UHGV virus genome: UHGV-2168191 | Direction: 5' to 3' (one strand) | Source of the DNA: a virus | DNA length: 36,078 nt | Shown here: piece after piece, positions 21,001 to 24,000 of the stretch | Position numbering within the stretch: the first letter of the stretch is position 1 | How the letters are laid out: each line of letters opens with the position of its first letter | Program-made: the position numbers

Positions 21001-24000
21001 GTAAATGTGATCTATCGTAAGATATTTAAACGCCCACGGTCGCCCTCTAACTGGTTTGTCTATACCATACAGACGATACCAATGCTCATAAAGTTCAGGG
21101 GTGAACTCTCTTTCATACTCACGAGCCTCTTCAGCAACATATCGCTTATATGCTTGAATTACTTCTTCTTTTGTTCTGTCATACCCTGCCAAAGCATAAA
21201 CAAGCCCCTGAATTCCCGCCTTGGCTGATGCATCAATAATTATCCTGGCTTGCTTAGCAATCCCTTCCTGACTAGAAAGCAACTTACCTTCAGCTTTAGC
21301 GTTAGAGATTGCTCGACATAAATCAATTAAGATTGTTACATCGTAGCCATGTATTACAGGGTTAGCTGGTGTGTTCGTGCCCACCTGTTTGTATTGAAAA
21401 ATAAGAGGATTTTCAAGTTTTGCCCTTAATTCATGCCCGATATACTGAGAAATAGTTTTCCCCTGAATAAACTTTGGCAACCTGCTGCCACCTTCGCCAA
21501 GACCAATCGCTTCTCCCATGCCTCTCTGGCTAATAACGGCAGTTTTGTTATCATCATTTAACACATAGCACTCAACATCAATCCCGAATTCATGCTGGAA
21601 CGATCCCTTATGCGTAGCAATTAATGGTTTATCCTTCCATCTTGCAGCCGCTGCTTTCTTTGCTATTTCAGAACGCTGCTCTTTAGTCAGCGACTTTGCG
21701 CGAGCGATTCCGCCCTTAGCTTTCCCTTCACCACTTTTCTTTTCAGTCATAATGCAAGCACCTTTGCTGTGATATATGCTTGCATTATATGCACTGTACC
21801 CACATACAAGCAAGCATAAAACAAAAGCAAAATGCTTGCATTGCAACCGCACTACTCCAACTACACAGTATCATCTGGTATCCTGCGTAAAACCGAGTGT
21901 TGCGTGCTTTTGCTTAAGTTAACGGATACAAACATAGGAAACGTTACAAGGGGAAAGAATGAAATCCAGATTTTTCACAATAGCAATATTTTCTTCCGTT
22001 CTTCTATCACTCGCAGCTTATGCTGCATCCGACAAAGATAAGGAAAAAATGATGTCTTTAATAAAAGATGCTTCTCCTTATGTTGCAGGCATGGGCAAAA
22101 GCATTGATGAAGTTTGTCAGGATATGGCTAACGACATGGTAAAAAAGTATGGAAATCAACTTAGTGCTATTGGCAAGTCACCGTCAGATATACGAGATTC
22201 ATCGTATGGTATATGCTTTGACGCTGCATCTTCAGCATCATTATCGCAATCCATAGAAGAAGTAAGCATGTGGAAAAATGCAGCAATGCAAAACATTAAC
22301 GCCACATTCCGAGGCGAGAATGAGCAATCTCCCGCGCGAAAATTTCTCGTTGAGACAATTGATCACTCTGAGAAAATGGCAAAAACAATTGCATTCATGC
22401 GGGAAATTAGTCAATAGCAAATCTGCTAAGGCACTGCACTTGAAAATGCCTGATTTACTGATGATCTGCGATTCAACTCCTTAAATCCTTCGGTTAGTTT
22501 TGAGGATTGATCCGTTTTGGCAATTACCTTTACCTCTCCTATGTGCTGGCTGTTGTAATTGTTAACAACGCTTTGGGTATAGGATTGATTTGCAGATCCA
22601 TTAGCCAATCTTTGCTGAGTTTGGTAGTAAGCGGCATTGCTATTTTTCGTTGGGTTACCATAATCAAGACCCCGCTTCCAATCTGGATAACCTTCATGCC
22701 TAGCCATATAGGCGCTAAGTTTTGCCATAACCTCTGGATCTGAGAGGTTTAGCTTATCATTGGCACCAACGCCCATAGACTTAGAAACCTGGTCAATATA
22801 CGCCTTTGTGTTGTTTTCTGAGGATGGTGCCCACTTGCTTATTATTCCTTGCAACGTATCAAGCTTATCTCTTTTGTAGTATAGAGTCAGTTGATTCCTG
22901 GCGGCCTCCCAACCCTCTTCTGGGTCGAAGTATTGAGCAAATCCGTCTTTGTCTCTTCTTCTGTTTCCAGTAGCTTTAAGATTTAATGGGTTATTGTTTC
23001 TGTCAGGCCTGTTGACACCATTTTTGTTAGGAGGAATCTCTTTATTTGGATCGTCATAATCCAGCCCAATGAGCCTTTCAAGCCAATGCTGCTGAAATGC
23101 GAATGGCCGCATCTCATCAGGAACATCTTTATACTGGTCTTGTACCATCTGCCCAAAAATACCAACAGCACCGATTAATCCCAGCTTGCTTCCTAACCCC
23201 TTGCCGCTAAGAAGAGCCATGGCAGCAAGAATGCCCAATGCGTTTCCAGCGCCACCAACGGCTTTAACAAAACCATCAATACCTGTACTCAGGTTCCTGA
23301 AGAACCCAACAATGTCACCCTTGTTGTTTTTCAGCCACTCTAAAAACTCCTGTTCAGCTTTAAGCACTTCAGGGCCAAATGTAGCCATTAATTCTTGTTT
23401 AACCTGAGCAAATTGCGAGTCAAGGGCTTTAGTCGTAGCAAGAATGTTGCGCTGTGCTTCTTCCTGCTCTTTGGTCATCTGCCATCGTTTTTCTTCCTCA
23501 GATACCATCTGCACAGCTTTTCCGCTTTTAATATCCCCGGCAAGATTAGGGTCATAACCAAAAGCAGAAAGCACTTGCATTAACTGTTTCTCGTTATGGT
23601 TCTTCCCATATTTCTGAAATTCCGCCAGAGCATCTTCTGATTTACCTCCAAGCTTACTAATATCAATGCCTGTTCTCGCTCCAGTTGTTAGTAAATTCTG
23701 AGCCTCCGGTGTAAGTCCGCCGAAAATTGTTGGGTCTTCTATATTGGCAAGCGCCATCCTGGCGCTCATCTGTGCCCCAAGGAACGCGCCGCCGTTCTGA
23801 CCAATTCGGGAGAATCCATACTGAGTACCAAGAACGTTACTGGCGCTTGTTCCAAGCATTCTCCCCATATTACTGGCTCTTACAATTGACTCCGAAGTAC
23901 TTTCAAATGCACGATGAATGCCAATGGCTACGGCAGTCAACACACCGCCAACAGCCACAAAGCGTGTCGAAAGCCCCAAAAAACCATTAAATGAAGCAGT

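What the first reader, a model, noticed from the sequence alone, without database searches (positions are those of the whole stretch)
21959..22417. AT-rich secreted-protein gene wedged against the tape measure gene
A plus-strand gene in an otherwise minus-strand late region encodes a 152-aa protein with a clean Sec signal peptide (cleavage after AYA), two cysteines and no lipobox. It has its own ribosome-binding site and is transcribed divergently from the P63C-like gene. Periplasmic proteins encoded beside tail or immunity genes are often superinfection-exclusion factors or lysogenic-conversion factors.
Basis: partly seen in the sequence, partly recalled or inferred. Interest (0 to 1): 0.55.

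Follow-up and report, generated by a model that had tools for sequence, protein, structure and literature searches.

The report
Secreted prophage protein beside tape-measure gene
A real, conserved gene for a small helical protein exported to the periplasm occupies, in a family of enterobacterial prophages, the same spot next to the DNA-delivery (tape-measure) gene that the exclusion gene sieA occupies in phage P22, so it most likely keeps related phages out of the cell, though no experiment shows this.

Summary
Bases 21959-22417 (+) encode a 152-aa protein with a Sec-type signal peptide (cut after A-Y-A), two invariant cysteines, no lipobox and an AAGGGG ribosome-binding site. The gene ends 8 nt from the stop of the tape-measure/lytic tail gene (TMP). 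It is under purifying selection and belongs to a tiny, unannotated, Enterobacterales-only family (no Pfam, PHROG, NCBIfam, PADLOC or PDB relative). The predicted fold is a five-helix bundle.

In every locus with enough flanking DNA it lies convergent with the TMP 3' end of an E217/Pam3-type temperate myovirus. Layout matches P22: gene 16 | sieA | mnt | arc | ant.

The position is a cassette slot. A conserved ~60-nt leader precedes unrelated secreted proteins, some fused to each other. The occupant tracks the cell-wall hydrolase domain in the TMP: close family-A relatives and family C go with an Enc34-endolysin-like domain (13 combinations, 1 exception), other families only with SLT domains.

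Best reading (inferred): a prophage-expressed periplasmic superinfection-exclusion factor, probably blocking the incoming tail's cell-wall hydrolase as T4 Spackle does. A new variant of a known kind.

The parts
21959..22417 (+). Gene for the 152-aa secreted protein ('family A' occupant of the slot next to the tape-measure gene)
   Evidence: ORF. 29 homologues at 44-99% identity. Purifying selection. AlphaFold2 five-helix bundle, pLDDT 86.9. No Pfam, PHROG, NCBIfam or PADLOC hit.
21959..22024 (+). Signal peptide, residues 1-22, with the predicted cut A-Y-A|A-S
   Evidence: Charge, hydrophobic core and the -3/-1 rule, kept in 26 homologues although the sequence itself varies. pLDDT below 50 for residues 1-19.
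21899..21958 (+). Conserved cassette leader: TTGCGTGCTTTTGC, 12 nt, TACAAA (TAGAAT in most relatives), then AAGGGG and ATG. Promoter-like and 5'UTR.
   Evidence: Alignment A4. An nhmmer profile of it hits once per locus, directly upstream of the convergent slot ORF, in 22 independent IMG/VR loci that carry unrelated ORF families. No canonical sigma-70 site is called here.
22426..24201 (-). Tape-measure / lytic tail protein (591 aa), convergent with the finding
   Evidence: PHROG 873, 2013 and 2276. It follows the tail-assembly-chaperone gene 24413-24820. Alignment A3.
22654..23019 (-). Enc34-endolysin-like (PHA02564) peptidoglycan hydrolase domain of the tape-measure protein, residues ~395-516
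   Evidence: phmmer against PDB: 7q47_A endolysin E 2.4e-11; 9vvp_L Gp29 E 8.4e-14. The 7Q47 paper is PMC8943055.
20758..21750 (-). P63C-domain gene, divergent from the finding. It is an optional insert between the slot gene and the mnt-like gene.
   Evidence: Pfam PF10546, E 1.3e-8. Absent from most related loci. The same gene sits in the immI region of the P22-like phage vB_EcoP-611R6.
21752..21841 (.). Four ATGCTTGCAT-like 10-mers in alternating orientation within the divergent intergenic region (operator-like)
   Evidence: 4 of the 8 window matches fall within these 90 nt. Function not tested.
20385..20744 (+). Mnt/Arc-family ribbon-helix-helix repressor gene, same orientation as the finding, followed by a strong terminator hairpin at 20731-20756
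   Evidence: Pfam Arc, E 2e-20. Terminator scan.
20144..20317 (-). Small Arc-like gene, first gene of the ant operon
   Evidence: Pfam Arc, 22.1 bits, above the cut-off.
19138..20196 (-). Antirepressor Ant (P22_AR N- and C-terminal domains)
   Evidence: Pfam E 1.6e-44 and 8e-30. PHROG 245.
18325..19104 (-). Second antirepressor-like gene
   Evidence: PHROG 1726, E 8e-100.

Best explanation
The gene encodes a small periplasmic helical protein made by the prophage. It occupies the sieA-equivalent slot of a P22-type immunity-I module that has been inserted into the tail operon of an E217/Pam3-type temperate myovirus.

Proposed mechanism:
1. It is transcribed from its own leader, opposite to the late operon.
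2. It is exported by Sec, cut after A-Y-A, and probably disulfide-stapled through C53 and C86.
3. It waits in the periplasm of the lysogen.
4. When a related phage injects, the C-terminal end of its tape-measure protein enters the periplasm carrying an Enc34-endolysin-like muramidase domain.
5. The acidic family-A protein binds that basic domain (or the adjacent tape-measure C-terminus) and stops cell-wall penetration and DNA entry. T4 Spackle does the same to the gp5 tail lysozyme.

Shown here: the gene, its conservation, signal-peptide features, predicted fold, fixed position, cassette structure, and class-level pairing with the hydrolase domain.

Inferred: expression in lysogens, export, the disulfide, the target and the exclusion phenotype.
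For: 1. Export signal and soluble helical mature part.
2. Fixed position. In every locus with enough flank that encodes a relative (17 loci among L001-L019), down to 25-30% identity, the gene is convergent with the TMP stop codon, from a 4-nt overlap to a 14-nt gap. In Cronobacter it is the only insert there.
3. Same architecture as P22: gene 16 | sieA (own promoter, after the mnt terminator) | orf59a, mnt | arc, ant. The window has mnt-like, arc-like and ant genes alongside. A P22-like podovirus carries the same P63C-mnt-arc-ant module with a membrane-anchored ORF abutting gp16.
4. The slot is specialised. TMP-anchored surveys find unrelated signal-peptide proteins there (families A, A', B, C, D, E, G), plus fusions A'+B and A'+G. 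A conserved leader precedes whichever ORF is present.
5. Occupant tracks hydrolase class. In the first survey, A or C paired with an Enc34-type domain in 11 distinct combinations against 1 with SLT. All other families paired 0 with Enc34 and 20 with SLT (Fisher p 9e-8). The metagenome sample agreed.
6. The pairing is not simple linkage. The TMP tail segment lying between the domain and the slot is shared by both classes. Within the A/Enc34 class, slot and TMP have recombined freely: the window's slot protein is 80% identical to L002's while the TMPs are 48-50% identical.
7. Mature family A is acidic (pI 5.2-5.7 in five of six lineages). The Enc34-like domain is basic (pI 8.2-9.75). Spackle binds a basic patch on gp5 lysozyme (PMC7677548).
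Against: - No experimental or expression data.
- No sequence or fold similarity to Spackle or to any known exclusion protein or lysozyme inhibitor.
- One locus (L006) pairs an identical family-A protein with an SLT-type TMP. A remote A-like protein (P0034 type, L104) also sits beside an SLT TMP.
- No fine-scale co-divergence of the family-A protein with the hydrolase domain (r 0.23).
- The Fisher test is not corrected for shared ancestry. Two old cassette lineages could give the same table.
- The family-B model is OB-fold-like and resembles no known inhibitor.
- No canonical sigma-70 promoter is found in the window's copy, whose -10-like hexamer is degraded to TACAAA.
- About 40% of related loci have instead a small membrane or signal-anchored protein gene co-directional with the late operon. 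That suggests late rather than lysogenic expression for those occupants.
Confidence: 0.45

Rival explanations
1. It is a superinfection-exclusion factor with a different target. The periplasmic protein blocks entry by binding a non-catalytic part of the tape-measure protein, another ejected protein, or a host periplasmic or inner-membrane factor needed for DNA entry. HK97 gp15 and TP-J34 Ltp work this way, acting on tape-measure-dependent entry. It is not an enzyme inhibitor.
For: - The positional and cassette evidence is the same as for the best explanation.
- The L006 and L104 exceptions and the lack of co-divergence with the hydrolase domain fit a target other than the catalytic domain.
- The structurally unrelated occupants (helical family A, OB-like families B and E) need not all be enzyme inhibitors.
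Against: It does not by itself explain why the slot family tracks the hydrolase class rather than the adjacent TMP tail segment or the N-terminal type.
Confidence: 0.2
2. It is a lysogenic-conversion or host-fitness moron. The secreted protein alters the host envelope or protects it (for example from host lysozyme or stress) and has nothing to do with incoming phages.
For: - It looks like a moron: own leader, slightly lower GC, opposite strand, present in some related prophages and absent from others.
- It is secreted.
Against: - The family occurs nowhere except this one slot of one tail lineage. There are only 9 clusters at 50% identity among 1.84 billion representative proteins, and none in 185,579 species-representative genomes.
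- The occupant co-varies with the TMP hydrolase class.
- There is no similarity to Ivy, MliC, PliC or other inhibitor families.
Confidence: 0.15
3. It is a lytic-cycle accessory. It is made during infection to spare the infected cell's wall from the tail hydrolases of progeny or superinfecting virions (protection from lysis from without), or to modulate the phage's own entry apparatus. It is not a function of the lysogen.
For: - T4 Spackle itself is an early lytic-cycle protein with this role (PMC7677548).
- In many related loci the gene after the TMP is co-directional with the late operon.
Against: - This gene is antisense to the antiterminated late transcript.
- In most relatives it lies downstream of, and in the same orientation as, the mnt-like maintenance repressor gene.
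- The equivalent P22 gene, sieA, is expressed from the prophage (PMC10883804).
Confidence: 0.1

Closest known systems
T4 Spackle (Sp, gene 61.3), a periplasmic inhibitor of the gp5 tail lysozyme
   Same: - Small protein with a cleaved export signal.
- Compact all-helical bundle with a cysteine pair.
- Phage-encoded.
- The proposed target is the cell-wall hydrolase carried by the tip of an incoming tail.
- An acidic protein facing a basic hydrolase.
(PMC7677548.)
   Different: - No sequence or fold similarity.
- The mature protein is about 130 aa against 75 aa.
- It is encoded by a temperate prophage in an immunity-I-type module, not by an early gene of a virulent phage.
- The presumed target is an Enc34-like domain at the C-terminus of a tape-measure protein, not a T4-lysozyme-fold domain of a spike protein.
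- Inhibition has not been demonstrated.
P22 SieA
   Same: - Identical genomic logic: convergent against the last DNA-delivery protein gene, with its own promoter behind the mnt terminator, next to mnt-arc-ant.
- SieA is prophage-expressed and blocks DNA delivery. Escape mutations map to the C-termini of the ejection proteins.
- Several unrelated sequence types of SieA occupy the site (PMC10883804).
   Different: - SieA is a polytopic inner-membrane protein. This protein has only a cleavable N-terminal hydrophobic segment and a soluble helical body.
- No homology.
- The host phage here is a contractile-tailed phage with a tape-measure protein, not a podovirus with ejection proteins.
HK97 gp15 and Streptococcus phage TP-J34 Ltp (exclusion proteins acting on tape-measure-dependent DNA entry)
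   Same: - Prophage-encoded and envelope-located.
- They block entry at the tape-measure step. Ltp is built of helical domains.
- HK97 gp15 is a moron inside the tail gene cluster.
(Basis: own knowledge. Both papers are listed as references 8 and 9 of PMC10883804.)
   Different: - gp15 is membrane-anchored and Ltp is a lipoprotein. This protein has no lipobox or membrane anchor after cleavage.
- No tblastn match in the 50,697 deposited phage records.
- Targets and mechanisms are untested here.
Phage morons and accessory-gene hotspots
   Same: - An independent transcription unit inserted between essential late genes.
- Slightly lower GC.
- Present or absent, and swapped for unrelated genes, among close relatives.
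(concept in PMC3594210.)
   Different: - The slot has a conserved leader reused by many unrelated ORFs.
- Convergent ORFs in the slot are nearly all envelope-targeted; five IMG/VR loci (one combination at 90% clustering) have the mnt-like repressor gene there instead.
- Its content correlates with a domain of the neighbouring structural gene.

Membership tests
T4 Spackle family | Sequence homology to Spackle | tested here: not met
   tblastn of the 152-aa protein against 50,697 deposited phage records gave no match. The family profile searched against all PDB chains at E up to 10 listed no Spackle chain.
T4 Spackle family | Cleavable periplasmic export signal | tested here: met
   Rule-based signal-peptide features kept in 26 homologues. 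SignalP and an export assay were not available.
T4 Spackle family | Compact alpha-helical bundle stapled by a disulfide | tested here: inconclusive
T4 Spackle family | Binds and inhibits the tail-borne lysozyme | not testable with these tools
   Only indirect evidence: class-level pairing with the Enc34-like TMP domain and opposite pI values.
P22 SieA-type exclusion genes | Gene convergent against the last DNA-delivery protein gene, beside mnt-arc-ant | tested here: met
   P22 map compared with the window map and related loci.
P22 SieA-type exclusion genes | Polytopic inner-membrane protein homologous to SieA | tested here: not met
   The SieA sequence has several long hydrophobic stretches, as its paper reports. 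This protein has a single N-terminal hydrophobic segment and amphipathic helices. No tblastn match.
Bacterial lysozyme inhibitors (Ivy, MliC/PliC, PliG, PliI, LprI/DUF1311) | Match to the family profile or its fold | tested here: not met
Moron | Own promoter/leader | tested here: inconclusive
   There is a conserved leader with a -10-like TAGAAT (TACAAA in the window), but no canonical -35 hexamer and no mapped transcription start.
Moron | Compositional offset from the surrounding genome | tested here: met
   The offset is mild: 39-40% GC in the gene against 42-50% around it.
Moron | Presence/absence or replacement among close relatives | tested here: met
   One of 5,426 complete E. coli genomes carries this gene. 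Related prophages carry family B, family C or other genes in its place.
Known anti-phage defence proteins (PADLOC) | Match to a PADLOC model | tested here: not met
   No hit for families A, B, C, A'+B or xN+G.

The most novel reading that the evidence does not exclude
The slot beside the tape-measure gene is a cassette system of class-matched periplasmic 'anti-lysins'. Family A (and family C) would be a structurally new class of inhibitors of Enc34/PHA02564-type muramidases. Families A', B and G would inhibit SLT-type lytic transglycosylases. The cassettes would be swapped between prophages by recombination between a conserved leader and the conserved tape-measure C-terminus, driving an arms race over the cell-wall penetration step. 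That would make Spackle-type exclusion a general strategy of temperate phages rather than a T-even peculiarity, and would yield several new peptidoglycan-hydrolase inhibitor folds.
Probability: 0.3. Interest if true: 0.75.

Novelty: new variant of a known kind. Interest (0 to 1): 0.55.

Why it matters
- If the reading is right, this is a previously unrecognised family of prophage exclusion proteins. It is also part of a wider, easily recognised cassette slot (conserved leader plus a variable secreted ORF abutting the tape-measure gene) in enterobacterial prophages of Escherichia, Salmonella/Citrobacter, Enterobacter, Yersinia, Cronobacter and Edwardsiella.
- It would extend the only well-understood 'tail-lysozyme inhibitor' mechanism, T4 Spackle, to temperate phages and to two other hydrolase folds.
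- It would help explain why tape-measure lytic domains are so mosaic.
- It could supply natural inhibitors for Enc34-type and SLT-type enzymes, which matters for phage host range and for endolysin-based antibacterials.
- The hypothesis is directly testable with one strain (E. coli WS4437A-1) and a plasmid.
- If the reading is wrong, the gene is an ordinary moron of unknown function.

Tried and rejected
- **Family libraries.** Pfam, PHROGs, NCBIfam and PADLOC gave nothing for the protein.
- **Deposited phages.** tblastn against 50,697 phage records gave no match.
- **PDB sequence search** with the family profile found nothing meaningful.
- **Scan of GTDB representative genomes** with the family alignment found no relative, so the family is too rare.
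- **Remote homology between families A and C.** hhalign aligned only the signal peptides at probability 1%, so this was rejected.
- **Rfam on the leader and gene** gave only sub-threshold chance hits.
- **Similarity of the window's intergenic region to the P22 sieA leader.** It amounts to an 11-mer (E 0.019), about 15 of 17 when extended by eye. That is too weak to use.
- **Canonical sigma-70 promoter upstream of the gene.** None was found by the scan or by my own scoring.
- **Fine-scale co-divergence of family A with the hydrolase domain.** Absent (r 0.23, 15 pairs).
- **Docking test.** Modelling the mature protein fused to the TMP domain was not attempted.
- **Not-a-gene reading.** Rejected on conservation and pN/pS.
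- **Lysis-cassette role.** Rejected: holin, endolysin and the Rz-like gene lie elsewhere in the same prophage.
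Full report
**1. The observation**

Bases 21959-22417 on the plus strand hold an ATG-initiated ORF of 152 codons.
- An AAGGGG Shine-Dalgarno motif lies 6 nt upstream.
- The N-terminus is MKSRFFTIAIFSSVLLSLAAYA|ASDKDK. It has two positive charges, a 16-residue hydrophobic core, A-x-A at -3/-1 and no cysteine at +1. This is a type-I Sec signal with no lipobox.
- I could not run SignalP. However, 26 full-length homologues keep the same layout while the signal region itself varies far more than the mature part (majority-residue frequency 0.53 against 0.79). AlphaFold2 leaves residues 1-19 unstructured.
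- C53 and C86 are invariant in the family alignment A1.
- The ORF is a real gene. Between six lineages synonymous sites are saturated (pS 0.69-0.89) while pN is 0.14-0.44.
- The 'AT-rich' label is only mildly true: 39-40% GC against 42-50% nearby.
- The left neighbour, 20758-21750 (-), is a P63C-domain gene and is divergent from the ORF.
- The right neighbour, 22426-24201 (-), follows a tail-assembly-chaperone gene and matches lytic-tail/tape-measure PHROGs. Its stop codon lies 8 nt from the ORF's stop.

**2. What the protein is**

- It has no Pfam, PHROG, NCBIfam or PADLOC match.
- It has no tblastn match in 50,697 deposited phage records and no PDB relative by profile search.
- The word-index search of 5.8 billion proteins found 29 relatives, all 'hypothetical'. 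Those with a source name come from Escherichia, Enterobacter, Citrobacter, Salmonella, Yersinia and Cronobacter.
- An exhaustive HMM search of 1.84 billion cluster representatives found only nine clusters.
- Only one of 5,426 complete E. coli genomes carries the gene. That strain is WS4437A-1, where it lies in a prophage next to intS/purK.
- With the 28-sequence alignment, AlphaFold2 gives a confident five-helix bundle (pLDDT 86.9, pTM 0.79).

**3. Where it sits**

- In the 17 loci with enough flanking DNA (among L001-L019), the gene is on the strand opposite the late operon. It is convergent with the roughly 590-605-aa tape-measure gene (TMP), from a 4-nt overlap to a 14-nt gap. The tail cluster is of the E217/Pam3/XM1 type (sheath PF11863, tube PF22764, plug PF22479). 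This holds down to relatives at 25-30% identity (P0032, P0037, P0040).
- The rest of the insert varies between loci. In Cronobacter the gene is the only thing between the TMP and the next tail gene.
- In the window the insert also holds:
  - a Mnt/Arc-family gene on the plus strand with a strong terminator;
  - a small Arc-like gene and an ant gene on the minus strand;
  - a second antirepressor and the P63C gene.
- This is the layout of the P22 immunity-I region: gene 16 (+) | sieA (-, own promoter, behind the mnt terminator) | orf59a, mnt (-) | arc, ant (+) | gene 9.
- A P22-like podovirus, vB_EcoP-611R6, carries the same P63C-mnt-arc-ant module. There, a membrane-anchored ORF abuts the gp16 homologue.
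- The finding therefore occupies the sieA position. The P22 sieA gene product is prophage-expressed and blocks DNA delivery (PMC10883804).

**4. The position is a cassette slot**

I anchored searches on the TMP rather than on the finding, in three collections: GTDB representatives, IMG/VR and metagenomes.
- About half of the loci carry a convergent ORF that abuts the TMP stop and starts with a signal peptide. These ORFs fall into unrelated families:
  - A, the finding's family;
  - A', diverged A at 25-30% identity;
  - B, C, D;
  - E, which matches the OB-like Pfam family tRNA_anti-like;
  - G and xN.
- Some occupants are fusions. P0035, P0040 and L017 are A'+B (the B half is 39% identical to the stand-alone B protein of L015, E 3e-29 for P0035; 51%, E 1e-48 for L017/P0040). 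L026 and P0036 are A'+G. These fusions tie the families to one another functionally.
- Most loci without a convergent ORF have instead a 60-76-aa two-helix membrane protein, or a 101-121-aa signal-anchored protein, co-directional with the TMP.
- A conserved leader of about 60 nt precedes the ORF whichever family it encodes (alignment A4). Its parts, in order:
  - usually a terminator hairpin, AAAAGCCCACCTGAGTGGGC;
  - TTGCGTGTTTTTGC;
  - 12 nt;
  - TAGAAT;
  - (C/T)AAGG, 7-8 nt, ATG.
- A profile of the leader hits once per locus, exactly upstream of the slot ORF, in 22 independent IMG/VR loci. It hits none of the loci that lack a convergent ORF.
- The 21-nt spacing between TTGCGT and TAGAAT does not fit a canonical sigma-70 promoter, and no scan calls one. 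The invariant upstream motif may be a regulator site.
- In the window the leader spans 21899-21958. Its hexamer is weakened to TACAAA, and the hairpin is replaced by the P63C intergenic region.
- Window and L015 sequences are homologous up to the slot's start codon. Homology resumes only in the first 74 nt of the TMP gene. The exchanged unit there is the slot ORF plus nearly the whole TMP.

**5. Link to the tape-measure hydrolase domain**

[quoted passage not shown] This PHA02564 family is a lysozyme-like muramidase (PMC8943055).
- Other loci carry an SLT lytic-transglycosylase domain at the same place.
- After clustering slot proteins and TMP C-termini at 90% identity there were 42 distinct combinations:
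  - A or C with Enc34-type: 11;
  - A with SLT: 1 (L006);
  - every other convergent-ORF family with SLT: 20 (one of these is a non-secreted Arc-family ORF);
  - every other family with Enc34-type: 0.
- Fisher's exact test gives p = 9e-8, uncorrected for shared ancestry.
- The later metagenome sample agreed. It added two more A/C-Enc34 combinations and four more other-SLT combinations. It also added one remote A-like protein (P0034 type, L104) beside an SLT TMP.
- The pairing is not simple nearest-neighbour linkage, for two reasons:
  - The TMP tail segment that lies physically between the hydrolase domain and the slot (…VVNSNPQ..DALT…) is shared by both hydrolase classes.
  - Inside the A/Enc34 class the slot gene and the TMP have clearly recombined. 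The window's slot protein is 80% identical to L002's while their TMPs are 48-50% identical. Its TMP is 64-76% identical to L019's while the slot proteins are 43% identical.
- Close and remote members of the A fold thus partition by hydrolase class: close A with Enc34, and A' with SLT.
- Mature family A is acidic (pI 5.2-5.7 in five of six lineages) and the Enc34-like domain is basic (pI 8.2-9.75).

**6. Most likely mechanism**

- I propose a prophage-expressed periplasmic exclusion factor. It would meet the C-terminal end of an incoming phage's tape-measure protein in the periplasm and block cell-wall penetration and DNA entry. The most probable route is binding the Enc34-like hydrolase domain.
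- The closest functional precedent is T4 Spackle. Its mature form is 75 aa, periplasmic, a helical bundle with one disulfide, and it binds a basic patch around the cleft of the gp5 tail lysozyme (PMC7677548).
- Shown here: gene reality, export features, fold, fixed position, cassette structure and class-level pairing.
- Inferred: expression in lysogens, export, the disulfide, the target and the phenotype.
- Counter-evidence:
  - the L006 and L104 exceptions;
  - no fine-scale co-divergence (r 0.23);
  - no similarity to any known inhibitor for family A or family B, whose model (pLDDT 83) is weakly OB-like;
  - possible phylogenetic inflation of the association;
  - no recognisable sigma-70 promoter in the window's copy.
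- I put 0.45 on this reading.
- Rivals:
  - 0.2 on exclusion through another target (a non-catalytic part of the TMP or a host entry factor, in the manner of HK97 gp15 or Ltp);
  - 0.15 on a phage-unrelated lysogenic-conversion role, which fits poorly with the family's confinement to this single slot;
  - 0.1 on a lytic-cycle role.

**7. Comparison with known systems and novelty**

- The protein is not a member of the Spackle, SieA or lysozyme-inhibitor families. Homology and fold tests were run and not met.
- It works, I infer, like Spackle, and it sits like sieA.
- I found no paper describing this family or slot. The searches returned the Spackle, SieA, Ltp and moron literature but nothing on a periplasmic protein paired with tape-measure hydrolase domains.
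- I rate it a new variant of a known kind: an envelope-located prophage exclusion moron. The added, more interesting feature is a leader-defined cassette slot whose content matches the neighbouring hydrolase class.

**8. Verdict**

Context points to exclusion, but there is no functional proof.
- Interest is 0.55. A single strain and a plasmid would decide the question.

Noticed in passing
window 21752-21841: Four ATGCTTGCAT-like 10-mers in alternating orientation, spaced 24, 32 and 24 nt, lie in the divergent region between the P63C gene and the secreted-protein gene. They account for 4 of the 8 window matches within 90 nt. The array looks like an operator set for an unknown regulator. It is conserved in about 70 E. 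coli genomes that carry the P63C module.
   Followed up: partly
window 3165-10002: A second, P2-type contractile-tail gene block lies next to a host Asp-Al_Ex/TrkA-C permease gene at 935-2620. It comprises sheath 8830-10002, tube 8305-8820, a 1025-aa tape measure 4744-7821, gpU 4262-4747 and gpD 3165-4265. The window therefore holds parts of two different myovirus tail modules.
   Followed up: no
window 10145-12256: A Hin/Gin-type serine DNA invertase gene (10145-10717) sits beside oppositely oriented tail-fibre C-terminus and tail-fibre-assembly genes (10739-11233 +, 11236-11679 +, 11651-12256 -). These adjoin the Collar-domain tail-fibre gene at 12253-13146. It looks like an invertible host-range switch. 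The otherwise near-identical prophage of WS4437A-1 has different genes here and an integrase instead.
   Followed up: no
L006:8468-10231 compared with L007:8468-10279: Two Yersinia prophages have identical slot proteins and identical tape-measure C-terminal tails. One has an SLT domain and the other an Enc34-like domain in between. This is a clean internal swap of the hydrolase domain inside a tape-measure gene.
   Followed up: partly
L044, L045, L047, L050, L064, L080, L082 (about 30-270 nt after the TMP stop): Loci without a convergent secreted-protein gene carry a 60-76-aa protein with two hydrophobic helices (MRRSLLYxFIY…). It is co-directional with the tape-measure gene and followed by a terminator hairpin. 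It is another envelope-targeted occupant of the same position, but within the late operon.
   Followed up: partly
L017:7456-8289, L026:5276-6004, P0035, P0036, P0040: Natural fusions join different slot families in one secreted protein: A'+B (272-287 aa) and A'+G (241-259 aa). These are Rosetta-stone links between otherwise unrelated slot occupants.
   Followed up: yes
window 22426-24201, and the phage collection: No deposited phage genome has a tblastn match covering 80% or more of this tape-measure protein. The best matches, to Edwardsiella phages GF-2 and Edno5, cover only half at 27-28% identity. This widespread enterobacterial prophage tail type therefore seems to have no close sequenced isolate in that collection.
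   Followed up: no
P0003 (121 aa) compared with window 21959-22417: Some public annotations start this gene at Met32 (MSLIKD…), which removes the signal peptide. That 121-aa form is the representative for 209 contigs. The conserved N-terminal region in the homologues argues for the 152-aa form.
   Followed up: yes
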